The notes beneath the pieces are model-generated. The model saw only the letters and a program-made list of their open reading frames with translations. It did not search any database and was not told the origin of the DNA. The position numbers and the translations under genes are program-made. A stretch of 64,000 nucleotides of DNA. Source: an uncultured Gemmatimonadales bacterium (lineage in GTDB: Bacteria; Gemmatimonadota; Gemmatimonadetes; Gemmatimonadales; Gemmatimonadaceae). Numbering within the stretch: position 1 is the stretch's first letter; each line of letters begins with the position of its first letter. The stretch lies in assembly GCA_963701965.1 (NCBI GenBank), contig OY969695.1, forward strand, positions 864,001-928,000, given 5' to 3'. This document shows, piece after piece, positions 7,289 through 56,450 of this stretch.

Positions 7289-9013
7289 CTACGAGGTCGC
7301 CGAGCCCCGTGCGGCTTCCAGCGCGCGCCGCGCTTGGGGCACCAGCGCGCTCGCGGGATACGTCAGGATGAGATGCTCCCACCGCGCCTGCGCGCCGGCG
7401 ACATCGTGATTCCGTGCCAGCGCGCGTCCCCACTCCAGGTCGGCCTCGGGCGCTTCGGGCGCGTCGGCATATTGCTCCACCACCGAGCGCCAGATCGGCA
7501 CCGCGAGTGCATCCTGATGGCGCGCGGTGTAGAGGCGCGCGGCGAACGCCAGCATGAGCGGCGCGGCATCGCGCACGACATCGCCCGCGGCCACGAACTG
7601 CTTGGCGGCCGACGTGCTGTCGCCGGTGGCCAACGCCACGAACGCTTGCCCGACCGACGGCGCGCTATCGGCGTGCGTCCGCGCCAGGAGGGCGAGCGCG
7701 GTCACGAGATCCGTCGATGGCGCGTCGGCCTGCCGGAGCGCCGTGCGCGCCGTGCGCAGGTCGCCAGCGTAGAGCGCGAGCCATCCGGCAAGCTCGCGGT
7801 CGTCGCCGAGACCGGACGCGGCCACGGCTTCGCGGGCCCGGGTGATGTTGCCCGACCGCACGTATCCCCAGGCCACGTCGCGCGACAGACGGGCGTGCGC
7901 CGAGTCGTCGAGATAGCGGCTATAGGCGCGGACGCTGCGGTCGGCGTCGTCGGCCCGCCCCAACACCGCCAACGCCCGCACGCGCAACGGCAGGAGCGTG
8001 CGGGCCGCGGTCGCCGAATCGACACCGGTCGCCACGGCGCGGTCGGTCAGCGCCAGTGCCGCGGCACCATCGCCGGCGCGGAGTGCCGCTTCGCCCGCCC
8101 GCGCCGCCAGTCGGGCCGTCGCCGGCGGCGGTCCATGCGAGGCATTCAGCACGGCCGTGAACGCGTCGCGAGCGGCGCGCCACTCGCCGGCGGCGTCGGC
8201 GGCGTCGCCGAACTCGTCCCAGGCGTTGAGGGTCGCGGAGTCCGGGTGGAGCGGCGCGAGCGCCTGCCACGCGTCGTGGGCGTCGCCCCAGGCCAGCGCC
8301 AGTGTGCCGTACGCGCGCCGGCTCCCGAGGGTCATCGGAGCACTCAGGAGCGCGGCTCCGACCTGGGCGCGCAATGCGGCGGGCGTCGGCCGGAGGGCGT
8401 AGGCGGCGCTCGGCGCCAGATCGGGCACGCTGTCGACCGCCGTGCGCCAGGCGCGGGCCGAAGCGTCCCACATGCCGAGCGTGGCGCGCAGCTGCGCGGT
8501 CTCGACGAGGAACTCGCGCCCGCTGCCGAACGTGCGCTGGGCGCGTTCCAGGACCGAGTCGGCGGCTTGGGGACGGCCTTCCTCCAGCAGAATGCGCGCG
8601 TAGTCGCGATAGGGCGTGGGATCACGCGGCGCGTCGCGCACCCAGCGCTCGAACGCGGCGCGCTCGTCGTCGGGACGACTCAGCATCCGGAGGGCCCGGA
8701 GCTGAACGGAACGGAACACGGCCTCGCGGGGACGCGCCGCGATCACCGTGTCCAGCAGCGGCAGCAGGGAGTCCGTGTGACTCAGCTCGGCGTAGACGCG
8801 CTCCAGCCCCAGCACGGCGGCCACCGTGTTGTTGCCCACGTGTAGCGCATTGCGATATGCCGCGGCCGCATCGGCCCAGTCGCCGCGCTGCTCGGCGTCG
8901 TAGGCCGCGGAGAGCGGCGACACATCCTGCGCGAGGGCCCGGGCCCCGGTCGCGACCAGCGCGACCCAGACCAGAACGGCGCGGCCCGCGACCCTAGGGC
9001 TGCTGCTGCGCAT
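7289..9013 (-). CDS. Exported tetratricopeptide repeat protein
   Basis: Signal peptide ending ALA-Q; Ala-rich helical repeats; C-terminal YPASALVPQAR TPR end. Confidence 0.8.
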   Translation of the reverse strand: MRSSSPRVAGRAVLVWVALVATGARALAQDVSPLSAAYDAEQRGDWADAAAAYRNALHVGNNTVAAVLGLERVYAELSHTDSLLPLLDTVIAARPREAVFRSVQLRALRMLSRPDDERAAFERWVRDAPRDPTPYRDYARILLEEGRPQAADSVLERAQRTFGSGREFLVETAQLRATLGMWDASARAWRTAVDSVPDLAPSAAYALRPTPAALRAQVGAALLSAPMTLGSRRAYGTLALAWGDAHDAWQALAPLHPDSATLNAWDEFGDAADAAGEWRAARDAFTAVLNASHGPPPATARLAARAGEAALRAGDGAAALALTDRAVATGVDSATAARTLLPLRVRALAVLGRADDADRSVRAYSRYLDDSAHARLSRDVAWGYVRSGNITRAREAVAASGLGDDRELAGWLALYAGDLRTARTALRQADAPSTDLVTALALLARTHADSAPSVGQAFVALATGDSTSAAKQFVAAGDVVRDAAPLMLAFAARLYTARHQDALAVPIWRSVVEQYADAPEAPEADLEWGRALARNHDVAGAQARWEHLILTYPASALVPQARRALEAARGSATS

Positions 9014-12000
9014 TGATCCGCTTGAAATAATCCAACACGAGCTGGCGATCCTCGGCGCTCAAGCCGCGCAGATCATTCCACGTAGGCTCGCGGAAGCGGG
9101 ATGTGCTCTTGCCCTCGACAGGCGCCGCGCCGGGGTTGAACCCGGGACGGTCGACCGCGGTCTGGGCCTCGCGCTTGCCCGTCGAGTCGCGCTCGTCCTG
9201 CTCCAGGGTGTGGCCGGCGTCGAGCAGCCGGTGGTAGAGGCGTTGTTGGCGGCTGAGCGTGGCCGGATCGGGGCCGCTCCGGGCCATCGCGGCCGCAATC
9301 TCCCGCGCTTCGCGCGCCAGGGCGTCGGCGCGGCCGCTGGCGTCGGCGCCGCCGATCGCATCGAGGGACTGGGCGACGCGGCGCTGACGCTCGGCCAAGG
9401 CCTGGGCATCGGCGCCGGGTTGTCCGCCGGCGCCCGGCACCAGCGACAGACCTTGGGACTGGGCGTTCAGCGCACCTTGCTGCTGCGCCAGCGATTGCAT
9501 CTGTTGGAGCATCTCGGCGAGGCCGGACGCCGATGACGCAGTGTTGGCGCGCTCGCGGTCGCGCACGAGGGCGGCCGCGGCCTGATTGAGCGCGCTGGCG
9601 GCATCGCGCATGGAGTTCGCGGCTTGTTGCGTCATCCCGCTCTGGCCTGACTGTGAGCCGCTCTGCATCTCGCCGGTCGCCTGGCTCACTTTGTTCCGGG
9701 CATCGCTCAAGGCCCGTTGGGCGGCGCCGGAGATGAGCGCCGACTGGCGGCCGGCACCCTGGAGGCGCGAGTTCGCTTGATCCACCCCCTGCTGGATCGC
9801 GCTCTGTTCGCTCTTCATGCTGTTGCCATCGCCGCCGGACTGCGCCTGCTTGGCCAGCGCATCCTCCTGCCGCGCCATTCTGCAGAGTTTCCTGGATGGA
9901 GCGATCGAGCTCGCCCGTCACGGCTTGCTTCCACTCGTTGATCTGGTTCTGACGCGCCTGCCCGAGCTGGTCGGCGGCCTGGGCCATCTCCTGCGCCGCC
10001 TGCTGCGCCGCCTGGCGCTGGTCCCCGGCCTGGCCGGGCTGCGTGCCACCCTGGGTACCGCCGGGCTGTTGGCCGGGCTGCTGACCCGCTTGCTGCCCGG
10101 GTTGCTGACCCGGTTGCTGCCCCGGTTGCTGGCCGGCTTGCTGTCCCGGCTGCGTGCCGGGCTGCGGACCCGGTTGCTGGCCTGGCTGCCGGCCCAGCTG
10201 CTGCGCCGACTGCTGCCCGGGCTGCGCAGCCTGCGGTTGCCCGGCTTGCTGTTGCCCGTCCGGCTGCGGCGACGGCTGGCCAGCTTGTGGTTGGCCCGAC
10301 TGCGGCTGCCCCGGTTGAGGCCGCGGCTGTCCGGACGGCGGCTGACCGGCCGAGCGCTCTTCCGGACCGGGCGGCCGCTGCGCCAGCTGTTGCTGCCGAC
10401 CGCCAGCGCTATCGCCGCGCCCCGCGGCGCGCTCCATGGCCTGCGCCGACGCGTCGACGTGGGGCTGCGCGGCCCCGACTTGGTGCGCGCCCGTCTCCGC
10501 CTTTTCGCGGGCCAGCCGTTTGGAGAGGCTATCCACCTGCCGCGACAGTTCGCGCGATCGATCGGCGAGCGACTTCGCGTCGTTGGGATTTGGCGCGGTG
10601 CGTTGTTGCGCCACGCTGCTGTCTTTGTGGGCCAGATCCCGCGCCTCGTCGTGCAACGTCTGCATGGCGCCTTCCAGCGCCGCGCGCTTGAGGATGTCGG
10701 CGCTCCGCTCCAACTGATCCCGCAGTTTCTGTTGTTCGCGCGCCAGGTCCCCGAGCGATTGCCGCGCGTCGCCGCCTTGCAGCGACTGCGCGCTCTTATC
10801 GAGTTTGTCCAACTCGGCCTTGAGCTCGGGCGTCATCGCATCCCGCAGCAGCTGCTGCGCCTGATGCAGCTGGTTCGCCAGTCCCGTATCCAGCGCGCCG
10901 GCTTGCTTGAGTTGCTGTTCGAGCTGCCTGGCTTGCTGCTCCAGCGCTTTGACTTTGTCGGCGAGTTGCCGCTGCTCTTGGGCCAGCGCCTTCGCCTGCT
11001 CCGCCGACGCGTACGACAGCGGCTGCGCGCCAGACGCGCCGGCGTTGGCGCCACTCGACTGCTGCTGACTCCCGCCGGACCGATTCGCGCCCGCGCGCTG
11101 GCCGCGCGTGCGCGCCGCGTCGTCGGTCCGCTGTTGGAGCGCCCGCTGGGCTTGCGCCACTTGCGCCGCGCCCGCGACCGCCGAGTCGGCCGTGGCGCGC
11201 GCCAGCGCGCGCTCCTCGGTGACGCTCGGCACCCGGAGGATGAGCTCGCGGCTCATGCCGGTCTGATGCCACGGCGACTCGTCGGTGGCGACGGCGATGA
11301 CGTGCATCGCATCGCCCTGCCCGAGCCCGCGCTGGCTCAGATCGAGCTCCGCGCCCCCGCTCCATTGCGCGGGCGATGCCCCGACGATGTTCTGCTCGAT
11401 GACGGGCGAGTTGCTCCACCCATTCCCGCTGCTGTTGGACCGCCACGACCGGACCACGACCGACGCCAGGCCGTGATCGTCCGACGCCGACAGCGCCAGC
11501 GTGATATGCCCGCCCGGCGTCACGATCGTATCGTGCGCCGGCGCGACAATCTCGATCCGGGGCGCCGAGTCGGGGACGACATCCAGCTCGATCGCGGTCG
11601 GGACATCGGCGATGGTGCCCGCCACGCCGCGCGCCGTCCATTCCCAGCGGCCACTCGTCATCGCCCGGAGCGATCCCGAGAAGCGATGTCCATCGACGCC
11701 GAATCGCGTCGTGTCCTTTCCCCGCGCCAGGGCCACGGAGGCCAACTCGGTGGAGGCCCGGCCATCGATCGAGATGCGCGTCCCGATCGGCACGCGCGCC
11801 ACCTCGCCGGCCGGCAGGGCTTCATCCGCGCGCTTGAGGTAGGCTGGGTAGATCGCCCGCAACGCGATACCGCCCAGAAACGGCTTGTCGGTGACGCGGA
11901 CCATGACGGTGTCGCTGGTCGCCCGTCCATCGGCCGCCACCAGTGAGAGATCGGCGTCGACCGGGCCCAGGGCCAGGCGAGCGGCGCCGTCGCTGACCGG

Positions 12001-12696
12001 ATACCATTGCGTCGACCACGGCGCGCCACGCGCGCGCGTGTACACCGCGATCCGGCGCCGGCCCGGCGCCGTCACCCGGACGGTGGTGCGTTCCCCGCGC
12101 AGCACGTCGCCCGGCGCATCGATCCCCAGCGGCGGCAGGAGCGTGCCGCGCCAGGCTCGGACGGGATGCAGCACGGCGCGCCATCCATCCGGCGCGTTGG
12201 ACGCGAGCGCCACGCACGTGACCGCGGCGGCGGCGGCCACGAGGGCCCAGGCCCCCGCGCGCCGGCGCGCGCTCCGCTGGGTCTCCGGCGCGAGCGCCGA
12301 TCCCCCGGAGCGACTGTCCTTGGCCAGACGCGCCACCAGATCGGCCGCGCCGCGGCGCCCAAGGGGGCCCGAGTGCTCGACCTCGAGCGCGCCTTGCAGG
12401 GCGCCAGCCCGGAGCGACCGCTCGCGCTCGATGGTCCGCGAAACCGCCGAGCGGGTGACAGCGCCCCGCAACCAAAAGGTGGTCAGAGCCGTCGCCGCGG
12501 CGATGACCGCGAGCGCGACGGCCCAAACGAAGAACGGCACCGCGGGCGACAGCGCGAGCCATCGCGCGTCACCCAGGAGCGCGACGGCCGCCGCCAGCAC
12601 CAAGGCCACGCCGGCGCACGCCAGCGCGACGCCGTGCGCCGCGGTCGCGCGTCCCAGACGCCCGCGCTCGCGATCGACGAGCTCGGCGACGGTCAC
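8994..12696 (-). CDS. DUF4175-like membrane protein with long Gln-rich coiled coil; frameshift near 9878
   Basis: N-terminal TMs, Ig-like region, DDHGL motif, Q-rich coils, YFKRI tail; frames join as ETLQ-MARQ after removing one base at CATTC 9876-9880. Confidence 0.8.
10020..10350 (-). repeat. Degenerate 12/15-bp tandem repeats encoding QQPG/GQPQ units
   Basis: QPGQQAGQQPGQQPGQQPGQQAGQQPGQQPG in the translation. Confidence 0.85.
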
Positions 12697-13415
12697 GTGA
12701 CGGGGCGGCTGGTCACGGCGTAGACGAACAGGTTCACGCCCATGCGGAGCGCCGCCTCGTGCAAAGCTGGCGGATCGTTGTACGTGCCCACGTCCTCCCA
12801 ACCGTTCCCCAGATCGCTGGAGAACGTGTAGTACACGGCGAGCCGGTTGCCGAGAAAGATGCCGAAGCCGCGCGCGGGTTTGCCATCGTGCTCGTGGATC
12901 TTGGGCACGCCGTTGGGGAAATCGTAGACGATGTGGTAGATCGGATGCGACAGCGGGACGTCGACCAAGGGCCGGTCGGGAAACACGCGCGCGATCTCCC
13001 GGCGGAAGCTCTCGTCGAGACCATAGTTGTCATCGACGTGCAGGAATCCGCCCCGCGTCAGGTAGTCGCGGAGGCGCACGATCTCTTCGTCGCTGAACCG
13101 GATGTTGCCGTGTCCCGTGACGTGCAGGAACGGATAGTCCCACAGACGATCGTCCATGAGCGTGGTGCGCGCCTCGGTGCGTTCCACCTTGAGCGTGGTC
13201 CGCGCCGCGATCGCGGCCAACAGATTCGGCAGGCTGGACGGATTCGCGTACCAATCGCCGCCGCCATCGTATTGCAGGCGGGCGATGGTCAGTCGTGTCT
13301 CGGCGCGGCCCGATCCGTGCCCCGCTCCGCGGAACGCGAAGCCGGTCGTCGCCGCGACCAGCGCGGCCGCCAGCCACCATCGAGCACGATGTCTTCCCGC
13401 CGGGCGATCATTCAC
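12693..13415 (-). CDS. DUF4159 domain protein (exported)
   Basis: ARLQYDGGGDWY, YPFLHVTGHG, GGFLHVDDNYG, DLGNGWED. Confidence 0.88.
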   Translation of the reverse strand: MNDRPAGRHRARWWLAAALVAATTGFAFRGAGHGSGRAETRLTIARLQYDGGGDWYANPSSLPNLLAAIAARTTLKVERTEARTTLMDDRLWDYPFLHVTGHGNIRFSDEEIVRLRDYLTRGGFLHVDDNYGLDESFRREIARVFPDRPLVDVPLSHPIYHIVYDFPNGVPKIHEHDGKPARGFGIFLGNRLAVYYTFSSDLGNGWEDVGTYNDPPALHEAALRMGVNLFVYAVTSRPVT

Positions 13416-20250: not shown

Positions 20251-20259
20251 TCTCCCCCG

Positions 20260-36878: not shown

Positions 36879-38104
36879 CCTTGACGCTCCTCGAGAACGG
36901 AGCGGCGCCGCGCACCGGCTTCGCCAGCGTCGCCGACAGTCTGGTGGGCATCACGTCGGCCGTGGTTGTCGGCGAGAGCACCCCGGGAACGGCGTTGGCG
37001 GCGATCGCCACCGCGCGCGTCATCGCGCAGAGCCGGATCGTGACCATCGTCGATCTGATCGGCAACATTGCTCCATTGCGAGCGCTGGCCGAGGACGACG
37101 ACCCGCACGGGGTGTCCGATTGCTTCGTGTATGGCATCTCGCCCAAAGCGGTCACGCGCCGGACGCACGCCAGCGATCAGCTGTTCGTGATCCCGGCCGG
37201 TACGGAGCCGATCGAGCACGAGCCGGTGCTGTCCAGCGCCCGGTGGGGTCGCCTGATCGGCGAGTATCGGAACGCCGGAGCGCTCCTGCTGTTCGTCGCG
37301 GTCGCGCGGAGCGCCGGCCTGTCCGAGCTGATCGCCCAGACCGAGGGCGTCGTCGCCGTCGGCGCCGTCGAAGCGCTCCTCCCGTCCGGCACGCACGTCC
37401 TGGTGAATGCCACGCCGCCGCTGCGTCGCGTGGTGACGCGCCGGCTCGACGAGCAAACCATGCAGGGACAGCGCATCGGGCGCCGCATCGCCGCCGTGCT
37501 GGCGACGGCCGCCGCCATCGCGATCGCGGCATGGGTCGGCGTCGCCAAGCCCTTTCGGCCGGCGCCCGTCGCGTTGGCCGCGGTCCGCGCCGACACGGTG
37601 ACGACGAGCGCCAGCGCGCAGCTGGCCCCATCGCCCGGTGCGACCGCCGCGCCTGTCGCGGACGCGCGCGCCGAGTACGCGGTGCTCGTGGCGACGGGCC
37701 CGACGTACGCCGCCGCGCTCCGCACGCTGCGCGACACGGCGGCCGTCCTCGGCGCCCGCACCATCTCGCCCCTGGACTCGACCCATTTCGCGGTCCTGGC
37801 GGGAGCGTACGGCGATAGTTCGACCGCGGGCGCGGGCGCGGCGGCCGCCGGAGGCGGCGCCGTCGTCGCCCGCGTGCCGCTCGCGCTCCGACTCGCCGAT
37901 TCGCTCGCGGTGGATTCGGCGCAGGCGCTGGCCCGGCGCCTGCTCGCGCGGGGGATCCCCGCTTACGTCCTGCGCGGCACGTCCGGGAACGCGGCGGTAT
38001 ACGCCGGCGCGTTCGCGACTTCCGCCGATGCGGGCTCGCTCACCACGTCTTTGCGCCGCGCCGGCCTCTCCCCGGTATTGACGGCTCGCACTGGTCGACC
38101 ATAG
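36875..38104 (+). CDS. Single-pass membrane protein: degenerate ParA/MinD-like N-terminus and tandem SPOR-like C-terminus
   Basis: VTIVDL..GVSD..LFVIPAG; TM IAAVLATAAAIAIAAWVGV; VLAGAY and VYAGAF SPOR strands. Confidence 0.65.
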   Translation: MTLTLLENGAAPRTGFASVADSLVGITSAVVVGESTPGTALAAIATARVIAQSRIVTIVDLIGNIAPLRALAEDDDPHGVSDCFVYGISPKAVTRRTHASDQLFVIPAGTEPIEHEPVLSSARWGRLIGEYRNAGALLLFVAVARSAGLSELIAQTEGVVAVGAVEALLPSGTHVLVNATPPLRRVVTRRLDEQTMQGQRIGRRIAAVLATAAAIAIAAWVGVAKPFRPAPVALAAVRADTVTTSASAQLAPSPGATAAPVADARAEYAVLVATGPTYAAALRTLRDTAAVLGARTISPLDSTHFAVLAGAYGDSSTAGAGAAAAGGGAVVARVPLALRLADSLAVDSAQALARRLLARGIPAYVLRGTSGNAAVYAGAFATSADAGSLTTSLRRAGLSPVLTARTGRP

Positions 38105-41623: not shown

Positions 41624-42649
41624 ATGCTCGTCGTCATGAAGCACGGCGCGCCACAGGTCGACATCGACCGCGTGGTGCGCACGATCGAAGAGATGGGGTA
41701 CCAGGCGGCGCCGATGCCGGGCGCGCAGCGCACGGCCGTCGGGCTCGTCGGCAACGATGGGCGCGTCGACAGCTCGCGCATCGAGGCGTTGCCCGGGGTG
41801 GCACAGGTCATCCACGTCACCCAACCGTACAAACAGGTCTCGCGCGAGTGGCGGCCGGAGAACACCCTGGTGACCATCGCGCCCGGCGTTGTCGTGGGCG
41901 GGCCGGCGGTGGTGGTCATCGCGGGCCCGTGCTCCGTCGAGAACGAAGACCAGATCATCGCGGCCGCGCGCGCCGTCCGCGCCGGCGGCGCGACGGCGTT
42001 GCGGGGGGGCGCCTTCAAGCCGCGCAGCTCGCCCTATGCGTTTCAAGGACTCGGCAAGAAGGGACTCGAGCTGTTGGCGCTGGCCAAACAGGAGACCGGG
42101 TTGCCGATCGTCACGGAAGCGATGGACGACGAGGGCGCCCATTTGGTGGCCGAGTACGGCGATTGCATTCAGATCGGTGCCCGCAACATGCAGAACTACT
42201 CGTTGCTCAAGACAGTGGGGCGGCTCGGCAAGCCCGTGTTGCTCAAACGCGGCATGGCGGCCACGGTGGCCGATTTGCTGCTCAGCGCCGAGTACGTTCT
42301 GGCCGAGGGGAATGGCCAAGTGATCCTGTGCGAGCGGGGCGTGCGGACCTTCGATCCGGCGGCACGAAATATGTTTGACTTGACGGCAGTGCCCACGGTC
42401 CATTCGCAGTCCCACCTGCCGATCATCGCCGATCCGAGCCACGGAACGGGCGCGCGCGACAAGGTCATCCCAATGGCCCGCGCCGCGCTGGCGGCCGGCG
42501 CCGACGGGATCATGGTCGAAGTCCACCCGACGCCGGACCGGGCCCTGTCGGACGGGGCCCAGTCGCTCTATCCCGAGCAATTCGCATCGTTGGTCGCCGA
42601 GCTGCGCCAGATCGCGCCGGCGATCGGCCGGACGGTCGCATGTCTGTAA
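41624..42649 (+). CDS. aroF: DAHP synthase type I-beta
   Basis: AGPCSVE, GGAFKPRSSPY, IGARNMQN, DPSHGTG. Confidence 0.95.
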   Translation: MLVVMKHGAPQVDIDRVVRTIEEMGYQAAPMPGAQRTAVGLVGNDGRVDSSRIEALPGVAQVIHVTQPYKQVSREWRPENTLVTIAPGVVVGGPAVVVIAGPCSVENEDQIIAAARAVRAGGATALRGGAFKPRSSPYAFQGLGKKGLELLALAKQETGLPIVTEAMDDEGAHLVAEYGDCIQIGARNMQNYSLLKTVGRLGKPVLLKRGMAATVADLLLSAEYVLAEGNGQVILCERGVRTFDPAARNMFDLTAVPTVHSQSHLPIIADPSHGTGARDKVIPMARAALAAGADGIMVEVHPTPDRALSDGAQSLYPEQFASLVAELRQIAPAIGRTVACL

Positions 42650-43320
42650 TCCGCACGGTCGTCGCGCTGGCCCTCGTCACGGGCGTCGCCCGCGGACAAT
42701 CCGTCGACGAAATTCTCAATCACGCCACGACGGCGTACCAGAAAGTCACGACGATCCGCGCCTCGTTCGACCAGACGCTCACCAGCGGACTGACCGGAGA
42801 TACGACGGCGGGCAAGGGTGAGATGACACAGCTCCGACCCAATTTTCTGTCGGTGCGCTTTACGGAACCGGCGGGCGATCGGATCGTCGCCGACGGCACC
42901 TGGCTCTGGGTCTACGCCCCGAGCGCCACGCCGGGGCAAGTCATCAAAATGCCGCTGGCCGCCAACAACGACGAGCCCAATGCGCCGGCGGTCGATTTCG
43001 TGCAGACCTTCATCTCGTCGCCGCGGGCCCACTTCGACGTCTCGCCCGGCAAGGCGGACAGCGTGGAGGGACACAAAGCACATACCGTCGTCCTCGTGCC
43101 CAGGAAACCCGGGCAGTATACCAAGGCGACGGTCTGGATCGACGACGACGACGGCGTGATCCGGCAGTTCGAGGTGGTGGATGGCACCGGAACGACCCGG
43201 CGTATCCGGTTCACGAAGCTGGCGTTCAATACGCCCGTCGACAAATCGGTGTTCGTCTACCGGCCGCCGAACGGCGTCAAAGTCGTCGATCGGCAGACCA
43301 TGCTCAACGGCTCGGGCTAA
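42640..43320 (+). CDS. lolA: Outer-membrane lipoprotein carrier LolA family
   Basis: Signal peptide, ASFDQ, RP, IVADGTWLWVY, F.YRPP.GV.VVD. Confidence 0.85.
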   Translation: MSVIRTVVALALVTGVARGQSVDEILNHATTAYQKVTTIRASFDQTLTSGLTGDTTAGKGEMTQLRPNFLSVRFTEPAGDRIVADGTWLWVYAPSATPGQVIKMPLAANNDEPNAPAVDFVQTFISSPRAHFDVSPGKADSVEGHKAHTVVLVPRKPGQYTKATVWIDDDDGVIRQFEVVDGTGTTRRIRFTKLAFNTPVDKSVFVYRPPNGVKVVDRQTMLNGSG

Positions 43321-44135
43321 CGCGGATCTCGGCGAGCGCGCGTTCGACTTCGTCGAATTGCGCGACGCTCGCCGTGCCGGCGCCGCGCGCCACCTCCAGC
43401 GCCACCCGCGAAGCGGCGACGTAGAGGTCCTGCAGCAGCGGATCCGAGGCCAGCGCCGCCGCGTTGCGGCGCACCGTGCCCGCGTCACCGCGCGACACCG
43501 GACCCACCAGCGCGCGTTCGGCCCCGAGTGCCGCCACGTTGGCCACGGACGCGAGCAGGAGGTGCAGCGCGGCGCCGTCCGCCGCCTCGGGTTCGACGCC
43601 CAGCTGTCGCAACTTTTCCTCGGCGGCGGCGAGCAACACCGCGGGGAAGTTCGACGCGAAGACAGCCGCGGCGTGGTAGCCCGCCTTGGCGCCCGGCGGA
43701 ATACGCAGCACGCGCGCGCCCAGCACCCGGGCCAGGCACTCCGCGGCCGCCACGGCCGGCGCATCGCCGTCCACGCCAATCCAGCCGCCCTTGAGTGTGG
43801 CGGCCGCGCGCTCGGGCGCGGCCAAGGGCGCGATCGGATGAAACGTCCCCGCCGGATGTCCGGCGGCGCGAAGGGCCTGCATCGCCTCGACGGGGTCCGT
43901 CGCGCCGCTGGCATGCAGGACCACGGCTCCAGGCTTCATCCCCGCCGCGCATCACATCGCCCAGGGCACCGGGCAGATCTCCGTCGCGTACCGTGACGAG
44001 CACGATGTCCGCGCGCGCGAAGCGCGCCGGGGGATCGTCGGGAGAGGGGCGGCCGAACAGGTCCACGGGCATCGCCGCGGCCCGCAGGGCCGCGGCGAGC
44101 GCCCGGCCGGCCCGGCCGGCGCCGAGGATCGCGAT
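43304..44135 (-). CDS. Rossmann-like plus DUF2520 protein (PanG-like); non-canonical start and frameshift near 43941
   Basis: IAILGAGRAG, LVTVRD, VLHASGA, FHP, YHAAAVFASNF, GPVSRGD. Confidence 0.8.
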
Positions 44136-45754
44136 TACTTGAGCGACGGTTTCCGCGCCTCGGCGCGCCGGAGCAGGTCCGCGGGTGAGGAGGATTGGCC
44201 GGCGAGATCGGCGGCCACAACGAAGACGGAGTCCCGTTTCGTCGCCCGCTCGAAGAGCCCGTCGGCGCCGAACACGTACCGCGTCACCTCGGTCCCCAGT
44301 TGCTGGTCGACGTACGCCGAGGCGGCGTCGTACGTCGGCCGGTCGAGCGTCACGCCCCGCGCGCGCAACCGGCGGAACAACTCCTCGCGCATGGCGGGCG
44401 TGACATCGAAATCGGGCGACGACAGCGCGTGCGTCCCCTCGAGCGACAGCGCGTACGCGGTCAGCGCGTCGCGGAACGCCGGCACCTTCGATCCGAGCGC
44501 GCTCTCGAACGCGGCCTGGGTCGCCGAGACGGCGGTGTCGCCGACGATCACATCCGGGGTGATGCCACCGCCGCCATAGACCGTGCGGCCGCCGGAGGTC
44601 CGGTACATCACGCGCGCCTTGGTCGTGTCGCCCGCCGTCGAGTCGCTGCCGCCATCGCCATCGTCATCCGGCTTGACGCGCGGCCGGTTGATGCTGCGTC
44701 CGGACGGCGTGTACCAGAGGGCCGTCGTCAGCTTGAGCGCTCCCCCGCCGACTTTGAACAGGGATTGCGCGCTGCCCTTCCCATACGTCGGCGTGCCGAC
44801 CAGGACCGCGCGGTCGTGATCCTGGAGCGCCCCCGCGACGATCTCCGCGGCGCTGGCCGTGCCCCGGTCGACGAGCAGCACGACCGGCATGCCCGGCCAG
44901 TGTTCCGGCGCGTGGTCGACGTACTGCTGGGTGGCGCCATCGGCGCGCCCGCGCAGACTGACCGTCGTATCGCTGGGCGAGAGGAACAGGTCGGAGACCT
45001 CGACTCCTTGGGCGAGGAGACCACCGGGGTCGTTCCGCAGATCAACCACCAGGGACCGCGCCCCGCGCGCGCGCAGGGAGTCCACGGCCCGTGTCAGCTC
45101 GCGCGCCGTGGAGTCGCTGAAGACGGTGACGTGCACGTACGCGACGCCGGGCTTGAGGAACGCCGCCCGCGGCACCGCCCGCACGTGGATCGCGCGGCGG
45201 GTGACGGTGAACGGGATGTGCGCCTCGACTCCGGGCCGCTCTACCGTGAGACGCACGGTCGACCCCGGGGCGCCGCGCATCGCCTTCGACGCCTCGTCCT
45301 GCGTCCACCCCTGGGTGCCCTGCCCGTCGACCTCGATCAGCCGGTCGCCGGTGCGAATGCCGGCGCGGTCGGCCGGGGAGCCCGGCACGGGAGCCAGGAT
45401 CGTGATCCACCCATCGCGGATGTCGATCTGCACGCCCAGCCCGACATACGACCCGTTGGTCGTTTCGTTGAGGCGCTCCAGGCGGTCGGCCGAGAGATAG
45501 GACGTGTGCGGGTCGCCGAGCTCGTACAACATGCCGGTCACCGCGGCGTGGTACACCGAGTCGTCGCCGACCGAGTCGACGAAGTCGCGGCGTACGTGAT
45601 CCGCGACCTGATCGAACAAGACGGCGCCGACGCGGGCACCGGGGCCGCGGGACAACGGACCGGCGCCCTGGCGCAGACCGTTCTCCAGGAACCACCCGCC
45701 GCACACCACGCCCAAGCCCAGCGTGCCGATGACCACCACTGCCCGTGACCGCAC
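44135..45754 (-). CDS. S41 C-terminal processing protease
   Basis: DPHT, PDZ domain, DLRNDPGG, TASAAEIVAGALQD, TYGKGSAQ. Confidence 0.95.
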   Translation of the reverse strand: MRSRAVVVIGTLGLGVVCGGWFLENGLRQGAGPLSRGPGARVGAVLFDQVADHVRRDFVDSVGDDSVYHAAVTGMLYELGDPHTSYLSADRLERLNETTNGSYVGLGVQIDIRDGWITILAPVPGSPADRAGIRTGDRLIEVDGQGTQGWTQDEASKAMRGAPGSTVRLTVERPGVEAHIPFTVTRRAIHVRAVPRAAFLKPGVAYVHVTVFSDSTARELTRAVDSLRARGARSLVVDLRNDPGGLLAQGVEVSDLFLSPSDTTVSLRGRADGATQQYVDHAPEHWPGMPVVLLVDRGTASAAEIVAGALQDHDRAVLVGTPTYGKGSAQSLFKVGGGALKLTTALWYTPSGRSINRPRVKPDDDGDGGSDSTAGDTTKARVMYRTSGGRTVYGGGGITPDVIVGDTAVSATQAAFESALGSKVPAFRDALTAYALSLEGTHALSSPDFDVTPAMREELFRRLRARGVTLDRPTYDAASAYVDQQLGTEVTRYVFGADGLFERATKRDSVFVVAADLAGQSSSPADLLRRAEARKPSLK

Positions 45755-47614: not shown

Positions 47615-48672
47615 TGAGCCGCTCCTCGACGCTGGCGATCGAGAGTGCATTGACGAACGGATCGATCTCTCCATTCAGCACGTTGGTGACGTCATGCAGG
47701 GTGAGATTGACGCGATGATCGGTGACACGATTCTGCTGAAAGTTGTACGTCCGGATCTTCGCCGACCGGTCACCGGTGCCCACCTGCGTCTTCCGCATGC
47801 GCGACCGCGCGGCTTCCTGCTCCGCGATCCTGGCGTCGAGCAACCGCGCCCGCAGGACTTCCATCGCTTTGAGCTTGTTCTGGAGCTGCGACTTCTGGTC
47901 CTGCTGGCTGACGACAATACCGGACGGTAAGTGCGTGATCCGCACGGCCGAGTCGGTCGTATTCACACTCTGCCCGCCAGGCCCCGACGAGCGGAAGACG
48001 TCGATCCGAAGATCCTTGTCTTCGATCTTGATGTCGATCTCTTCGGCCTCGGGCAGCACGGCCACGGTCGCGGCCGACGTGTGGATGCGCCCCTGGGCCT
48101 CCGTGGCGGGCACCCGCTGCACGCGGTGCACGCCAGACTCCCAGCGCAGGGCGCCGAAGGCGCCCGTGCCGTCGACTTTCATGACGGCCTCTTTGATCCC
48201 CCCGAGCGTGCCTTCCGACAGCGACAGATACTCGGCACGCCAGCCACGGCGCTCGAATGTACCGGGTGTACATACGTTGCAGATCCGCGGCAAACAACGC
48301 CGCTTCGTCGCCCCCGGTGCCGGCCCGGATCTCGACGATCGCGGGGCGATCATCGAGCGGATCCGGGGGGACCAGGAGCGGCTGGAGGTCGGTCTCGATC
48401 GCCGGAATCGCCTCCTCGAGGCGGGCGACCTCCGTCCGGGCGAACGCCGCCATTTCGGGGTCCTCATTGGAAACGAGCTCGCGCGCCTGCACGAGCTCGT
48501 CATCCAATTTTTCGAGCCGATCCGCCAAAGCAACCACGGCGCTCAGCCGTTGGTGCTCCCGGCCCAGCGAACGCCGGGCGTTGGCGTCTCGCATGGTCTG
48601 CGGATCGAGTAACTCGCGCTCGACTTGAACCGCCCGGTCGAGCGCCTCCGCTAGACGGTCGCGGAGGCTCAG
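47592..48672 (-). CDS. prfA: Peptide chain release factor 1 (CTG start; frameshift near 48256)
   Basis: [17 protein letters not shown] (PxT), GGQ, IRTYNF; frames join as MYTRYIERRGW after removing one base at GAATG 48255-48259. Confidence 0.93.
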
Positions 48673-49687: not shown

Positions 49688-49697
49688 TGCACGTATC

Positions 49698-51299: not shown

Positions 51300-53178
51300 G
51301 TGCACGCGCTCCTGATCGTCGCCGGCACCGGGATCGACCTTCCCCGGCTGCCGGAGGAAATCGAAGTGCGGCGGGTGCGGGCGTTTCCGTTGATGGAGAC
51401 GCTGGAACCCGAGCGCCCGACCGTGATACTGGTCGCCACCGAGACGAAGCCCGAACTGATCGCCGCCGCCGCTGACGCGGCGGCGATCGTCGTTCTGGGC
51501 GGTCCGACGCCCCCGCCCGACCTCCCCATCGCCGGGTATCTGCCTCCCGGAGCCGAGCCGGCGCTTGTCGTGACGCAGATCCGGGCGGGATTCCGCCACG
51601 CGGGCGCGCTGTGCGCCGCGTCGGCGGCGCGCGCGGCCGAAGCCCGCCGCTATCGGGAGCTGACCGAGCTGACACATATCGGCGTCGCCTTGTCGACGGA
51701 GCGCAACCTGCTGACGCTCCTCGACAAGATCCTGACGCAGGCCCGCCGCATCGCGGACAGCGACGCGGGCTCACTCTACCTGCTGGAGCGCGGCGAGGAC
51801 GGCGGGCCCTCGGCGCTCCGGTTCAAGTTGTCCCAGAACTTCACGCTGCCGAACCTGCCGCTGAGCGAGTTCACGGTGCCGCTCGACCACGCGAGCCTGG
51901 CCGGCTACGCAGCGTCCACGGGCGAACCGCTGGTCATCGACAATGTGTACCAGCTGCCCGCCGACGTGCCCTATCGGCAGAACCGCAGCTTCGACGACAA
52001 GTTCGGCTATCGCACGAAATCCACGCTCGTGCTGCCGATGAAGACGCACAAGGACGAAGTCGTCGGCGTGCTGCAGCTGATCAACCGCAAGCCCACCCAC
52101 GACAGCCCGCTGCGGGAAGCCATTGCGTACGACCAGCGATCGGTGGAGCTGGTGACGGCGCTGGCCTCGCAGGCCGCGGTGGCCATTGAGAACAGCCAGC
52201 TGTACGAGAATATCGAACGGTTGTTCGAGGGATTCGTCACGGCCGCCGTAACGGCGATCGAGTCCCGCGACCCGACGACGTACGGACACTCGGCCCGTGT
52301 GGCGGCCCTGAGCGTGGCGCTGGCCGAAGTCGTCGATCGCGGCGGCGGCGAAGGCGCCTACCGCGTCACGCGATTCTCCCGGGCGCAGTTGCGGGAATTA
52401 CGGTACGCGGGCCTGCTGCACGACTTCGGAAAAGTGGGCGTGCGCGAGCAGGTGCTGATCAAGCAGAAGAAGCTCTACCCGCTCAACGCCGATCTCATCC
52501 GCCTACGCTTCGCCGTCCTGGCGCAGGCCGCGGAAGCGCAATTCGAGCGGGCGCGCGCCGACTACCTCATGCAACCCCGCGAAGGGATCGACTACGACGC
52601 GTTCGTCGAGAGGATCCAGCGCGAGCTCGAATGACACCCGGAGCCAACTGGAGCGCCTCTACCAGGCCGTGCGGTCCGCGAATGAACCGGCGCTGGACGT
52701 GGAGAAGAGCGCCGAGCCGCTCTCCACCTTGGCCGGGCTCATGTTCAACGATCTCGATGGCGAGTGCCGCCCGGTCCTGACCGACGACGAGCAGCGGTGG
52801 CTGTCGATCCGGCGCGGAAACCTGGACGACGAAGAGCGGCGCGAGATCGAATCCCACGTCACGCACACGTTCCGGTTTCTGCGACAGATTCCCTGGACGC
52901 GGGAGCTGCGGCACGTGCCGGACATCGCCTTCGCCCATCACGAGAAGCTCAACGGGCGTGGCTATCCGCGGGCGTTGGACGCCCAGGCGATCCCGGTCCA
53001 GGCGCGCATCATGACGATCGCCGACATCTACGACGCCTTGACGGCGGCGGATCGTCCCTACAAGCGCGCGGTCAGCGCCGAGCGGGCGCTCGAGATCTTG
53101 AACGACGAGATGCGCGCGGGGGCCATCGACCCTGACCTGCTGCGCACGTTCATCGCCGCGCGCGTCTACGCGACGTGA
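51300..53178 (+). CDS. GAF plus HD-GYP phosphodiesterase; frameshift near 52630
   Basis: DAGSLYL, FD.KFGYRTKS, VLQLIN, LLHDFGK, HHEKLNGRGYP, IADIYDAL, RPYK; frames join as ELDDTRSQL after removing one base at GAATG 52629-52633. Confidence 0.9.
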
Positions 53179-54694
53179 GGTAGCCGGCGACCAGCGCCAA
53201 CGTGGACACGGCGGCCACACCGCCGATCCAGTCGCCCCATCGCACGTACGGTGTGATCACCGACGTCGTCTGCGCGTCGTACGTGCGCGCGGCCGGCACA
53301 AAGAGATCCGTGGCGCCGTGCACGCGGCCGAGGGGATCGACATACTCGGAGATGCCGGTGTTCGCCGCCCGCACAATGCCGATGCGATTTTCAATGGCGC
53401 GGAGCCGCAGATGGGCCACGTGTTGATAGGGCGCCATGCTGCGGCCGAACCACGCATCGTTGGTGATGTTGGCCAGCACGTCGGCGCCCGAGCGGCGATA
53501 GTGGCGGGCGAGATCGGGAAAGATCGACTCATAGCAAATGAGCACTCCCAGTCGCCCGAACGGCAGCTGGAAGGGCTCCGGGTCGACGCCACGCCCGAAG
53601 CCGCCGAAGTACTTGAGCCCCTCGAACCATCGCGGGTTCACGAACGGCACGCGCTCGACGATCGGGACCAGGTATTCTTTGTGATACGCGGGCTGGGCGC
53701 CGAGCTGTCCCGTCGAATCGGCCAGTTCGGCCGCGTTGAAATAGTCGTAGGACACCGGCGATAGCCAAGTCACGTCGAGCACGCCGAAGAGCAGCGGCGT
53801 ATGCGTCTCCGCGGCCAACGCCCGCAGGGAGTCGCGCCACTCGCCGTGGTTCGACAGAAAGTCCGGCAGCGACGCCTCGGGCCACACGATGAGCGCCGGC
53901 TTGGGCCCTCGAACCAGACCGGCCCGCGTGGCGCTGGCCATGATTCCCATGAAGCGCGGCCGGTTCGCCTCTTGGATCTTCTCGTCCTCGGGCACGTTCG
54001 GTTGGATCACGGCGATCGGCGCCAACGCGCGGAGCGGCGTAGTCGCGAGGCGCCACGTCCCATAGGCGTAGACCCCCGCGCCGAGCGCGAGGATGCCCGC
54101 TACTCGAACGGCCACGCGCCGTCGCGTGAGTATGGCATCCGCGATAAGCCCGTTGGTTATCGCGATCCAGGCCGTGAGACCGTGCACGCCGCTCAGATCA
54201 GCGAGTTGCGCGAAGTGGGGGAACGTGGAGACGGCGAGGCCCAGCGTGAGCCAGGGAAACGCCAGGTCGCCCAGATGCAGGAGGACGAGCTCGGAGCACA
54301 CCCAGACCGTGGGCAGGAGCACGGCGAAGGGCCAGCCCGTGAAGCGGCGGGCAGCCCAGAGCGCGGCGGTGGTCAGCGCGAACCAGGGCGCCAGCCAGAC
54401 CAACGCGGCCACGTAGCCCAGGCTCGCCAGCCACGTAAAGATCGACAGCGCGACCGCGATCCAGTAGAGATTGGCGCCGTACCCGAGGAGACCAAACCAC
54501 AGCCCCACGCGCGCCGCGCTGCCCGCCGTCGGCGCCCGATCCACGGCGACCGCCAGCGGCACGAGGCACACGAACGCCGGCACGAACAGGCGGAGCGGCG
54601 GAAACGCGAGCGCGAACAGCAGTGATGCGCCCACGGCCGCCGTGAGCTCCGCGCGCGACGGCCGGAGGACGCGACGCCGGGAGAGGCCGGTCAC
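53150..54694 (-). CDS. lnt: Apolipoprotein N-acyltransferase
   Basis: FPW, QPN, WPEA, K..LVP..E, ICYESIFP, TNDAWF, ANTGIS. Confidence 0.94.
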   Translation of the reverse strand: MTGLSRRRVLRPSRAELTAAVGASLLFALAFPPLRLFVPAFVCLVPLAVAVDRAPTAGSAARVGLWFGLLGYGANLYWIAVALSIFTWLASLGYVAALVWLAPWFALTTAALWAARRFTGWPFAVLLPTVWVCSELVLLHLGDLAFPWLTLGLAVSTFPHFAQLADLSGVHGLTAWIAITNGLIADAILTRRRVAVRVAGILALGAGVYAYGTWRLATTPLRALAPIAVIQPNVPEDEKIQEANRPRFMGIMASATRAGLVRGPKPALIVWPEASLPDFLSNHGEWRDSLRALAAETHTPLLFGVLDVTWLSPVSYDYFNAAELADSTGQLGAQPAYHKEYLVPIVERVPFVNPRWFEGLKYFGGFGRGVDPEPFQLPFGRLGVLICYESIFPDLARHYRRSGADVLANITNDAWFGRSMAPYQHVAHLRLRAIENRIGIVRAANTGISEYVDPLGRVHGATDLFVPAARTYDAQTTSVITPYVRWGDWIGGVAAVSTLALVAGYLTSRRRARR

Positions 54695-55707
54695 AATTTG
54701 ATCTCTTTCTCCTCGTCCGCCGACCGGTAGATCGCTTCGACGATCCGGTGTACCGTGAGCTGATCCGTCGGCGCCTCGTGCTTGATCTCGCCGCGCACGA
54801 CGGCCACGAGATGCGCCAGCTCGGCGCGATACGACTGGATGAACACACTCTCGCGGGCGGCGGCTCCGGTGGGGGAGACGTCCGTCGGCCGGCCATTGAG
54901 GGACTTGATGACGCGGAGCGGCGACAAACGCGCGCTGCCGCGCGTCGACAGCACCTCGAACCACCACCGCTCTTCTTCACCCACGTAATTCCACGACAGA
55001 TCGAACGAGAGCGACACGCCCTGCGTGCACTCCAGGTGCACGAGCATGGTGTCCTCTACGGTGTGGACGCCGCGGCCGCGCTCCATATGGGCCGTCACCC
55101 GCACCGGATCGGGAAAATCCGCCAACCACAGGGCCAGATCCAGCAGCGGCACGCCGTGCTCGAAGAACACGCCGCCCCCGGCCTCGGCCCGCCGCGAACG
55201 CCAGCCGTCGGTCGGCCGCGCCAGCTGGTAGGATCCGGAGCGAACGCCGAAGAGGCGGCCCAACTCGCCACCCGCCATGAAGCAATGCAGCGCTTGGACA
55301 TCGCTCCGGAATCAATGGTTGTTGGCGACGACGATCGCCCGGTCGGCGCGGTCCGACGCGGCCAGGATCCGCTCCACGCCACGGGCCGTGAGGGCCAGCG
55401 GGCGTTCGCAGAGCACGTGCACCTTGGCCGCCAACGCCCGGAGGACGTGCGGCTCGTGCAGGTGGTTCGGCGTCGCGATGATGACCGCGTCCAGCTCGTC
55501 GAACTCCAGCAAGTCGTCGATATCCGTGAAGACGTCGCGGACTTGAAAGCGGTCGGCGAGCGCGCGGGCCTTGGGTCCATCGCTGTCGCACAAGGCGACG
55601 ACTTCGACGCCGCGCATCTTGGCCAGGACCGGCAGGTGGGCCAGCTGGGCGATGGCGCCGACGCCGAGAAGGGCAATGCGGGTCGGTGCGGGGGTCGTCG
55701 GGCTCAC
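54691..55707 (-). CDS. Gfo/Idh/MocA oxidoreductase with in-frame TGA at 55312-55314
   Basis: GVGAIA, ATPNHLH, HVLCERP, NNH*FRSD (Arg expected), GGGVFFEHG; both ORFs share a frame. Confidence 0.85.
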
Positions 55708-56450
55708 CGTTGCCGCTCCGGTCCGAAGAGATAGCGTCCGCCGGCGCGCAGTGTGCCGAAGCGGTCCCCGCTCAGGAGATCATAGCGGGCCTGGCCGTCG
55801 GCAATGAGCCACGAGGCGAGCCGCACCTCGAGGCCGACGGCGCCGGCCACCCCTGGTGAAAAGCCATCCAACGTGTGCTCGACGATCGTGCCGCGGATCG
55901 CCGCACCGGATGCGTCCTGCACATGCGTGGCGACGCCGGCCGTGAGGTACGGCCGGAGGAAGCTCTGCGCGCGCAACGGCGAGAACCGGAGGTCGATGCT
56001 CAGGACCACGTCGGAAATCGAGATCTTCTGATAGCGCAGCGAGTCAGTCGGGCTCGGGTTGATCACACTGTTCCGGTAGATGGTGTTGATCAAGGTGTGC
56101 ACGGCCGCATCGGTGTACCGCGAGGACCATACGGCCGCTCCGACGAACAACCGCCAGTGCGGGATGATCTCACCGTAGTCGGCCTCCACGGAATATGTCG
56201 CGGCGGGCTCGATTTGCAGGGGCGAGACCACCCCTCCGGTCACCCCAATGCCATCCAGGCGGAGCTTGTCCAGGTTCAGGTACTGGATCAGCGACGGCTT
56301 TTTGTGCGCCGTGGTATCCCTGGCGGTCGTGTCGCGGGCCGTCGTGTCGCGCCGCGCTACGCTGTCGCGATGGCTGGTGGTGTCCTGCGCGCCGGCCACC
56401 CTCGTGAGCACGCAAACGGCGCCAAGCGACAGGCTAGTCCACAGTCGCAA
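55704..56450 (-). CDS. Exported, probably outer-membrane beta-barrel protein with N-terminal RDTTA repeats
   Basis: Signal-like N-terminus, RPYLTAG and alternating strands, GRYLF near the C-terminus; start uncertain. Confidence 0.6.
   Translation of the reverse strand: MRLWTSLSLGAVCVLTRVAGAQDTTSHRDSVARRDTTARDTTARDTTAHKKPSLIQYLNLDKLRLDGIGVTGGVVSPLQIEPAATYSVEADYGEIIPHWRLFVGAAVWSSRYTDAAVHTLINTIYRNSVINPSPTDSLRYQKISISDVVLSIDLRFSPLRAQSFLRPYLTAGVATHVQDASGAAIRGTIVEHTLDGFSPGVAGAVGLEVRLASWLIADGQARYDLLSGDRFGTLRAGGRYLFGPERQR

What the first reader, a model, noticed from the sequence alone, without database searches (positions are those of the whole stretch)
7289..56450. Bacteroidota-type O-glycosylation sequons enriched in exported proteins
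Seen, by hand count of D-(S/T)-(A/V/L/I/T): TPR 9 in 574 aa, S41 protease 9 in 539, SPOR lipoprotein 8 in 523, barrel protein 6 in ~250. Cytoplasmic controls: Smc 3 in 1165, DinG 3 in ~830, RimO 0, HD-GYP 0. Known: this is the sequon of the general protein O-glycosylation system of Bacteroidota. Inference: this lineage runs a similar periplasmic glycosylation pathway, which I do not know to be described for it.
Basis: partly seen in the sequence, partly recalled or inferred. Interest (0 to 1): 0.7.

Follow-up and report, generated by a model that had tools for sequence, protein, structure and literature searches.

The report
Bacteroidota-style protein glycosylation in Gemmatimonadaceae
Exported proteins of this Gemmatimonadaceae bacterium carry the three-residue signal that Bacteroides and its relatives use to attach sugars, at twice the rate chance predicts, so it likely sugar-tags its envelope proteins too, and a membrane enzyme related to human TMEM260 is a predicted, untested candidate for the long-missing enzyme that would attach the first sugar.

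Summary
The counts are correct and the effect is genome-wide. In this Gemmatimonadaceae genome, D-S/T-(A/V/L/I/T/M) is 2.1-fold enriched in predicted exported proteins (1163 vs 559 expected) and about 1.06-fold in cytoplasmic ones. It is Asp-specific, holds for both serine codon families, follows membrane topology within single proteins, and is absent from GC-matched alphaproteobacteria (41 vs 44.5). Two of the window's nine S41-protease sites align with glycopeptides identified in Porphyromonas gingivalis. Best reading: a Bacteroidota-type periplasmic O-glycosylation pathway inherited across the FCB group (about 0.78; no glycopeptide seen here). Candidate initiating enzyme: a TMEM260-like (DUF2723) GT-C with intact catalytic residues, found in 150/151 Gemmatimonadota and 261/261 Bacteroidota genomes and called essential in B. 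fragilis (about 0.55). YfhO, proposed in a 2026 preprint, is about as widespread and also essential (about 0.3). Against: two related families carry both enzymes yet show no bulk enrichment. A 2025 review already notes enrichment in Fibrobacterota; I found no paper naming Gemmatimonadota or DUF2723 in this role. The scan reported the same idea earlier in two other genomes.

The parts
7289..9013 (-). Exported TPR-like protein, 574 aa, 9 sequons (D81, D88, D152, D194, D258, D332, D370, D449, D465)
   Evidence: (P=0.0008)
9073..12801 (-). DUF4175-like membrane protein reading frame (apparently frameshifted near its 3' end), 7 sequons, all after the N-terminal membrane segments
   Evidence: (first 985 aa, P=0.004)
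35307..36878 (+). SPOR-domain protein with a lipobox-like N-terminus, 523 aa, 8 sequons
   Evidence: (P=0.005)
36875..38104 (+).
   Evidence: (P=0.0002)
42640..43320 (+). LolA, 2 sequons (not significant on its own)
44135..45754 (-). S41 C-terminal processing protease, 539 aa, 9 sequons
   Evidence: (P=0.0004)
45569..45577 (-). S41 site D60-S61-V62; sequon kept in 114/120 homologs with free S/T and V/I/L exchange; same position as the DSV glycopeptide of P. gingivalis PGN_1788
44531..44539 (-). S41 site D406-T407-A408; kept in 88/120 homologs and in several other FCB lineages, absent in 4/4 alphaproteobacterial S41; same place (one-residue offset) as the DTA glycopeptide of P. gingivalis PGN_1788
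53150..54694 (-). Lnt; 2 sequons, both in the nitrilase domain (periplasmic by established knowledge)
55704..56456 (-). Probable small outer-membrane barrel, about 250 aa, 6 sequons, 5 of them in an N-terminal repeat stretch
   Evidence: (P=0.0014)
61682..62407 (-). Signal peptidase I; 3 sequons in the soluble domain

Best explanation
Exported proteins of this Gemmatimonadaceae genome are enriched about twofold for D-S/T-(A/V/L/I/T/M), and these triplets are likely acceptor sites of a periplasmic O-glycosylation pathway of the Bacteroidota type. Inferred mechanism: a sugar, most likely mannose, is loaded on a polyprenyl phosphate by the DPM1/Ppm1-like GT2 (genome C1:5057103-5057825) and flipped across the inner membrane. 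An inner-membrane GT-C then transfers it to the Ser/Thr of the triplet in extended polypeptides on the periplasmic side. The TMEM260-like DUF2723 protein (C1:3398783-3401002; a second, frameshifted copy lies at C1:836430-838829, about 25 kb before the window) is the most likely enzyme for that first step (about 0.55). The YfhO-like GT-C beside the GT2 (C1:5054663-5057110) would then extend the glycan or ligate an outer glycan. Shown here: the enrichment, its specificity and topology, site conservation, enzyme presence and the catalytic residues. Inferred: every chemical step and the sugar identity. The confidence figure is for glycosylation at the sequon, not for the enzyme assignment.
For: Genome-wide O/E against per-protein shuffles: signal-peptide 588/317, lipoprotein 339/133, N-anchored 266/108, cytoplasmic 2141/2013; still 1.67-2.06 after counting clustered sites once and 1.73-2.43 against 10-residue local shuffles. 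Whole-genome 1163/559 = 2.08, 95% CI 1.94-2.24, 501 proteins. Asp-specific (E 0.86, N 0.93), Ser/Thr-specific, third residue A/L/T/V/I/M high and D/E/Q/K low, reversed motif 447/433; this matches the Bacteroidota preference in the 2025 review. Topology within proteins: 14 single-TM Ser/Thr kinases, kinase part 11/12.8 vs C-terminal part 45/16.7; 9 two-TM sensors, loop 16/5.1 vs tail 6/8.4. Protein-level: TCN-Ser 3.02, AGY-Ser 2.77, shifted frames and antisense 0.96 or less. Negative control 41/44.5 in 58 exported proteins from 600 kb of 65-70% GC alphaproteobacteria; Bacteroidota pool 1.49. S41 homologs 655/286 with sequon-preserving substitutions; two sites match P. gingivalis glycopeptides. 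TMEM260-like: E 1.3e-14 to human TMEM260; D33/H48/D477 align with D52/H67/D441, which are required for activity in the human enzyme. Model pLDDT 94.5 with best fold matches PglB/STT3/AglB/ArnT/Pmt4, TM 0.36-0.41. Present in 150/151 and 261/261 genomes and in 1 of 14 controls, B. thetaiotaomicron. Quick tree follows FCB phyla. HMM-essential in B. fragilis P207. No STT3 found here; PMT_2 did not ring in the B. thetaiotaomicron control.
Against: No glycopeptide data were seen for any Gemmatimonadota. Families f6 and f7 (same class, other order) carry both enzymes but show no bulk enrichment (31/31.9 and 52/52.7); f11 gave 7/9.2; small samples of Latescibacterota, Calditrichota, Rhodothermales and three further Bacteroidota genomes (G319, G323, G371) were also near 1. 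Enzyme presence therefore does not predict site density. Both enzymes are so widespread in the FCB group that co-occurrence cannot be told from shared ancestry. TMEM260-like clusters also exist in Myxococcota and eukaryotes, and the human enzyme uses a long Pro/Gly signature, not D-S/T. metG is not followed by a wzx/GT locus here, unlike the Bacteroides LFG locus. One 97%-complete genome (G116) had no TMEM260-like match by two searches. Localisation came from my own heuristic classifier and gene caller, and mis-started exported proteins fall in the cytoplasmic class.
Confidence: 0.78

Rival explanations
1. Same pathway, other enzyme: YfhO is the protein-linking transferase, as the 2026 Comstock-lab preprint predicts, and the TMEM260-like protein adds a later sugar or serves another envelope polymer.
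For: The preprint cites Pmt4 similarity, conservation and essentiality. YfhO-like genes were found in 101/101 Gemmatimonadota and 260/261 Bacteroidota genomes once a group-specific profile was used. It is essential by both Tn-seq calls in B. fragilis P207. In this genome and in G067 it lies beside a flippase-like gene and a polyprenol-P-mannose-synthase-like GT2. P. gingivalis has an annotated YfhO/PMT-family protein, PGN_1968, which removes the gap the preprint itself noted.
Against: Characterised YfhO proteins glycosylate teichoic acids, that is polymers and not proteins (abstract), and the family rings in B. subtilis and L. lactis. The only characterised member of the DUF2723 family that I found is a protein Ser/Thr O-mannosyltransferase, and the Bacteroidota core begins with a hexose reported as mannose.
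Confidence: 0.3
2. No modification: D-S/T-hydrophobic is a folding preference (helix N-caps, turn-strand starts, Ser/Thr-rich linkers) of periplasmic proteins in a GC-rich, Ala-rich proteome.
For: In the S41 model S215 sits just before a helix, and D65 and D508 lie at helix starts or junctions. Five of the six barrel sites are one repeat stretch. Some FCB lineages show no excess.
Against: Cytoplasmic proteins, the cytoplasmic halves of the same proteins and GC-matched alphaproteobacterial exported proteins show no excess. The other S41 sites lie in loops, a disordered linker, mid-helix and a strand start. The excess survives declustering and local shuffles. E-S/T and N-S/T are not enriched.
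Confidence: 0.07
3. The triplet is recognised by a periplasmic enzyme, but the adduct in this lineage is not a Bacteroidota-like glycan (for example a phosphodiester-linked group), or the sites are relics of a pathway that has decayed.
For: Sequence statistics cannot identify the adduct. There is no LFG-like locus behind metG. One of the two TMEM260-like copies is frameshifted.
Against: The second copy is intact with all catalytic residues. The assembly has several other frameshifts in ordinary genes, so the broken copy may be an assembly error. Site density here exceeds the Bacteroidota pool, and sites appear in fast-evolving linkers (96/120 S41 homologs have a linker site), which points to ongoing selection.
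Confidence: 0.1

Closest known systems
[quoted passage not shown]
   Same: Same triplet and third-residue preference, restriction to extracytoplasmic segments, two S41 sites at positions glycosylated in P. gingivalis, shared near-universal DUF2723 and YfhO GT-C genes.
   Different: Different phylum; no glycan data; no metG-wzx LFG locus; here DSA, DST and DSL lead, whereas P. intermedia prefers DSL/DSI/DSV; the glycan may be shorter or different.
Human TMEM260 protein O-mannosyltransferase (PMC10214176; bioRxiv 10.64898/2026.03.17.711096; PDB 9rql)
   Same: Pfam PF11028; GT-C fold; D52, H67 and D441 equivalents aligned directly; the R-x-x-Y and R-D-Y motifs (my match to R264, Y267, R355) are invariant in 71/71 bacterial homologs.
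   Different: The human enzyme serves IPT domains through a long Pro/Gly signature and adds a single unextended mannose; no activity is shown for any bacterial homolog in the papers I searched.
YfhO/CsbB three-component glycosylation of teichoic acids (PMC5836110) and the YfhO-as-OTase proposal (bioRxiv 10.64898/2026.07.27.740950)
   Same: YfhO-like GT-C next to a flippase-like gene and a GT2 in this genome.
   Different: Known substrates are teichoic acids; the protein-transferase role is only a prediction.
Fibrobacterota sequon enrichment noted in PMC12871550
   Same: Statistical evidence that the system extends beyond Bacteroidota; reproduced here at 65/32.5.
   Different: The review text does not name Gemmatimonadota, WOR-3 or Marinisomatota and proposes no enzyme; its Fig. 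2A could not be seen.

Membership tests
Bacteroidota general O-glycosylation | D-S/T-(A/I/L/V/M/T) enriched over chance in non-cytoplasmic proteins | tested here: met
   2.08 (CI 1.94-2.24) vs about 1.06 cytoplasmic
Bacteroidota general O-glycosylation | Strict Asp at -1, Ser preferred over Thr, hydrophobic or small residue at +1 | tested here: met
   D 2.08, E 0.86, N 0.93; DS 2.82, DT 1.45
Bacteroidota general O-glycosylation | Sites on the periplasmic face of membrane proteins | tested here: met
   45/16.7 vs 11/12.8; 16/5.1 vs 6/8.4; a weaker 1.21 vs 0.97 for 253 multi-TM proteins oriented by the positive-inside rule
Bacteroidota general O-glycosylation | Glycan covalently attached at the sequon, with a conserved Hex-dHex core | not testable with these tools
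   needs glycoproteomics; only positional homology to P. gingivalis glycopeptides
Bacteroidota general O-glycosylation | LFG-type outer-glycan locus (metG, wzx, GTs) | tested here: not met
   no wzx or GT after metG; the review says this locus is not conserved phylum-wide and is scattered in P. gingivalis, so it is a weak criterion
Bacteroidota general O-glycosylation | Orthologous initiating transferase | tested here: inconclusive
   the enzyme is unidentified in Bacteroidota itself; both candidates are present
TMEM260-like O-mannosyltransferase (PF11028) | Family match, GT-C fold and catalytic residues | tested here: met
   the WD, HPPG and GDND columns were partly selected by the search patterns
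TMEM260-like O-mannosyltransferase (PF11028) | Transfer of mannose from a lipid-phosphate donor to protein Ser/Thr | not testable with these tools
   no assay
STT3/PglB N-glycosylation | STT3 gene and N-x-S/T enrichment | tested here: not met
   no STT3 in this 95%-complete genome; N-x-S/T 518/526

The most novel reading that the evidence does not exclude
The D-S/T O-glycosylation system dates to the ancestor of the FCB group. Its long-missing initiating transferase is the bacterial TMEM260 ortholog (DUF2723), and YfhO is the second missing enzyme (elongase or outer-glycan ligase). Human TMEM260 O-mannosylation and Bacteroides protein glycosylation would then be run by one enzyme family.
Probability: 0.42. 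Interest if true: 0.85.

Novelty: new member of a known kind. Interest (0 to 1): 0.62.

Why it matters
A sequon-driven O-glycosylation system was held to be special to Bacteroidota, with a hint in Fibrobacterota. Showing it in Gemmatimonadaceae would extend it across much of the FCB group and imply that a large share of this family's envelope proteins are glycoproteins (354 of 485 predicted exported proteins carry a site). The transferase and the ligase of the pathway are still unidentified. This work narrows them to two near-universal GT-C genes, both called essential in B. fragilis, which two depletion strains and one glycoproteomics run could tell apart.

Tried and rejected
1. YfhO absence as a discriminator. 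Pfam PF09586 missed 13/261 Bacteroidota and 8/101 Gemmatimonadota genomes, and G316 looked like a YfhO-negative genome with O/E 3.05. A five-sequence profile recovered YfhO in 12 of the 13 and 8 of the 8, and 67 of G316's 119 sites came from one repeat protein. Rejected. The preprint's statement that P. gingivalis lacks YfhO conflicts with a supplementary annotation, so that argument was dropped too.
2. DNA-level motif: rejected.
3. N-glycosylation: rejected.
4. PMT_2/PMT and Wzy_C proteins (9, 2 and 4 matches here). PMT_2 and PMT did not ring in B. thetaiotaomicron; Wzy_C rang in 9 of 14 controls and its conservation was not followed.
5. Per-phylum rates from 20-kb loci alone were too sparse. 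Larger samples remain noisy: confidence intervals include 1 for KSB1, Zixibacteria, Latescibacterota, Calditrichota and Rhodothermales.
6. C-terminal depletion as a sign of co-translocational transfer was uneven (2.55, 2.15, 1.26, 1.84) and is not used.
7. The careful tree did not finish; only the quick, midpoint-drawn tree is cited, with L047, L051 and L076 left out.
8. Human TMEM260 did not appear in the Foldseek list; the link rests on the sequence match.
9. No complex prediction and no read mapping were run.
10. Coyne 2013 (PMC3656502) was not held.
Full report
Setting. The window is C1:864001-928000 of a single-contig 5.12 Mb genome, 67% GC, 95% complete. Named best homologs of two proteins are Gemmatimonadaceae. 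I called 4641 genes with a self-trained model and sorted 4104 of them (at least 80 aa, score at least 25) by a heuristic into signal-peptide (282), lipoprotein (108), N-anchored (95), membrane (919), ambiguous (424) and cytoplasmic (2276) classes. These are not SignalP calls, and mis-started exported proteins leak into the cytoplasmic class.

Observation. All eight hand counts are right. Shuffle P values are 0.0008 (TPR), 0.0004 (S41), 0.005 (SPOR) and 0.0014 (barrel-like), with the four controls at chance. A second SPOR protein (36875-38104, 6 sites) and a DUF4175 frame (7 sites) fit too; DUF4159 and SpoIID have none and LolA has 2. Five of the six barrel sites lie in one repeat stretch. Over all window genes, 9 exported-class proteins hold 28 sites vs 8.8 expected and 40 cytoplasmic-class proteins 34 vs 29.2.

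Genome-wide test. For D-[ST]-[AVLITM] against per-protein shuffles: 588/317, 339/133 and 266/108 in the three exported classes, 2141/2013 in the cytoplasmic class. Declustered ratios are 1.67, 1.99, 2.06 and 1.03; ratios against 10-residue local shuffles are 1.73, 2.43, 2.38 and 1.05. Only Asp is enriched at the first position (2.08; Glu 0.86, Asn 0.93) and mainly Ser and Thr at the second (2.82, 1.45). After D-S the third position favours T, L, A, V, I, M and disfavours D, E, Q, K. The reversed motif is 447/433 and N-x-S/T is 518/526. Both serine codon families are enriched (3.02, 2.77) and other frames are not. Inside single proteins the excess is on the presumed periplasmic side: 14 kinases 45/16.7 vs 11/12.8, and 9 sensors 16/5.1 vs 6/8.4. 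It is weaker, 1.21 vs 0.97, in 253 multi-pass proteins.

Other organisms, same pipeline, protein bootstrap with a cap on repeat proteins. This genome 2.08 (1.94-2.24, n=501). Twelve named Gemmatimonadota loci plus 150 kb of a Gemmatirosa replicon 1.63. Bacteroidota pool 1.49 (n=104). Alphaproteobacteria of 65-70% GC 0.92 (n=58). WOR-3 2.22, Fibrobacterota 2.00, Marinisomatota 1.57, Gemmatimonadota families f10 1.67 and f12 1.65, all with intervals above 1. KSB1 1.54 and Zixibacteria 1.34 have intervals that include 1. Against a uniform picture: f6 31/31.9, f7 52/52.7, f11 7/9.2, Latescibacterota 1.11, Calditrichota 0.86, Rhodothermales 1.09, and three Bacteroidota genomes (G319, G323, G371) 5/5.0. 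Samples are 8-104 proteins from a few genomes each, kin are not independent, and the negative control is one class only.

Site-level evidence. In 120 S41 homologs there are 655 sites vs 286 expected. D60 is kept as a sequon in 114/120 with DSV, DSI, DTV, DTL, DSL and DTI interchanging; D406 is kept in 88/120; 96/120 have a site somewhere in the variable linker. In the model (pLDDT 83.5) sites fall in loops, a disordered linker, mid-helix, a strand start and up to three helix starts. S41 orthologs of f6/f7 have few sites (24/19.5 in 11 proteins), but all 11 keep the D406-equivalent, as do the Rhodothermales, one of two Calditrichota and the Prevotella protein; f11, f12, f5, f8, f9 and the G319 protein lack it, and four alphaproteobacterial S41s have no site at all. 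Table S2 of the P. gingivalis glycoproteome lists glycopeptides of S41 protease PGN_1788 with a DSV motif in a Y-V-D-S-V context and a DTA motif just after V-Y-G-G-G-G-I-x-P-D. By eye these are the positions of D60 and, with a one-residue offset, D406.

Machinery. The genome encodes two TMEM260-like (PF11028) proteins, one intact (739 aa) and one with two frameshifts about 25 kb before the window. The intact one matches human TMEM260 at E 1.3e-14, with D33, H48 and D477 on D52, H67 and D441, residues required in the human enzyme. It models at pLDDT 94.5 and matches GT-C folds (PglB, STT3, AglB, ArnT, Pmt4; TM 0.36-0.41). The family was found in 150/151 Gemmatimonadota genomes, 261/261 Bacteroidota genomes and 1/14 controls. 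A scan of GTDB kept the best 80 of 746 matches as 70 loci; all 60 with organism names are lineages I place in the FCB group from my own knowledge, but the ranking was biased by an FCB-type query, and Atlas clusters exist in Myxococcota and eukaryotes. A quick tree of 71 sequences follows the phyla, with 13 Gemmatimonadota rows on one side of a branch (SH-aLRT 98); one further record labelled Gemmatimonadetes (L085) fell elsewhere. Seven checked columns are invariant, three of them partly by selection. A YfhO-like GT-C lies between a flippase-like gene and a Ppm1/DPM1-like GT2 (labels from my reading of the sequence). It is equally widespread: 101/101, 260/261, and 47/50 of the genomes behind the scanned loci. 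In B. fragilis P207 Tn-seq, DUF2723 is HMM-essential and Gumbel-uncertain; YfhO is essential by both calls. P. gingivalis and P. intermedia have both. No STT3 was found, and there is no LFG-like locus after metG.

Mechanism. The likeliest reading is lipid-linked sugar synthesis, flipping, and GT-C transfer to the sequon on the periplasmic side (0.78). The published model lacks two enzymes, a transferase and a ligase, and there are two universal GT-C genes. I assign the first step to the TMEM260-like protein (about 0.55) because its one characterised relative is a protein O-mannosyltransferase, whereas known YfhOs act on polymers. YfhO first is about 0.3, and another enzyme about 0.15. Distribution cannot separate them.

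Literature seen. PMC12871550: parts 1-3 of 4 of the text; figure not visible; supplement listed, not read. It reports enrichment mainly in Bacteroidota and similarly in Fibrobacterota, calls the OTase undiscovered, and suggests seeking homologs of eukaryotic O-mannosylation. bioRxiv 10.64898/2026.07.27.740950: passages; its Table S1 was not seen. PMC10214176 and bioRxiv 10.64898/2026.03.17.711096: passages. PMC10897501 and PMC8729774: passages and supplement rows. PMC12645811: passages. PMC10790697: supplement rows only. PMC5836110: abstract. Nine searches listed no paper linking Gemmatimonadota to this system or DUF2723/TMEM260 to Bacteroidota glycosylation; DUF2723 occurred in one paper and TMEM260 with Bacteroid in none. 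Most subscription journals are outside the library, and Fig. 2A of the review may already show Gemmatimonadota.

Earlier scan notes. Two notes on other genomes reach the same idea. I had written it down before looking and tested it here; they are not independent evidence.

Verdict. Interest 0.62.

Noticed in passing
window 3470-5968 (-): DinG-type helicase with an N-terminal RadC-like JAB domain fused to it (PF04002, residues 11-94, E 5e-7).
   Followed up: no
window 8994-12801, 18203-19224, 46739-48182, 51300-53178, 54691-55707; genome C1:836430-838829: Several genes appear split by frameshifts (DUF4175 protein, LPG-synthase-type flippase, a release factor, HD-GYP, an oxidoreductase, the second TMEM260-like copy), which suggests assembly indels rather than decay.
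   Followed up: partly
window 20180-22876: A tRNA followed by a small antitoxin-like and RES-like gene pair (21987-22876), labelled from my reading of the sequence only; possibly an integration site.
   Followed up: no
window 35307-41617 (+): Two tandem SPOR-domain genes directly upstream of smc; the second has an N-terminal domain of unknown type, a hydrophobic segment and a sequon-rich C-terminal part.
   Followed up: partly
genome C1:5042947-5057825; L188:2177-6503: The yfhO-like gene, flippase-like gene and Ppm1-like GT2 lie downstream of lptC/lptA-like and rpoN genes; the same three genes are adjacent in G067.
   Followed up: partly
PMC8729774 Table S3: P. gingivalis PGN_1968 is annotated as a putative YfhO/PMT-family glycosyltransferase, in conflict with the 2026 preprint's statement that this species lacks YfhO; both it and the DUF2723 protein PGN_0192 are themselves listed as glycoproteins.
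   Followed up: partly
G316 loci L155-L160: A 2306-aa exported repeat protein with 67 sequons.
   Followed up: no
genome-wide, exported proteins: Acidic residues are depleted on both sides of the sequon and basic residues mildly enriched just after it, which may be a wider recognition context.
   Followed up: no
Gemmatimonadota families f6 and f7 (L198-L222, L243-L256): No bulk sequon enrichment despite both enzymes, yet one S41 site is kept in 11/11 orthologs; site density is lineage-specific and unexplained.
   Followed up: partly
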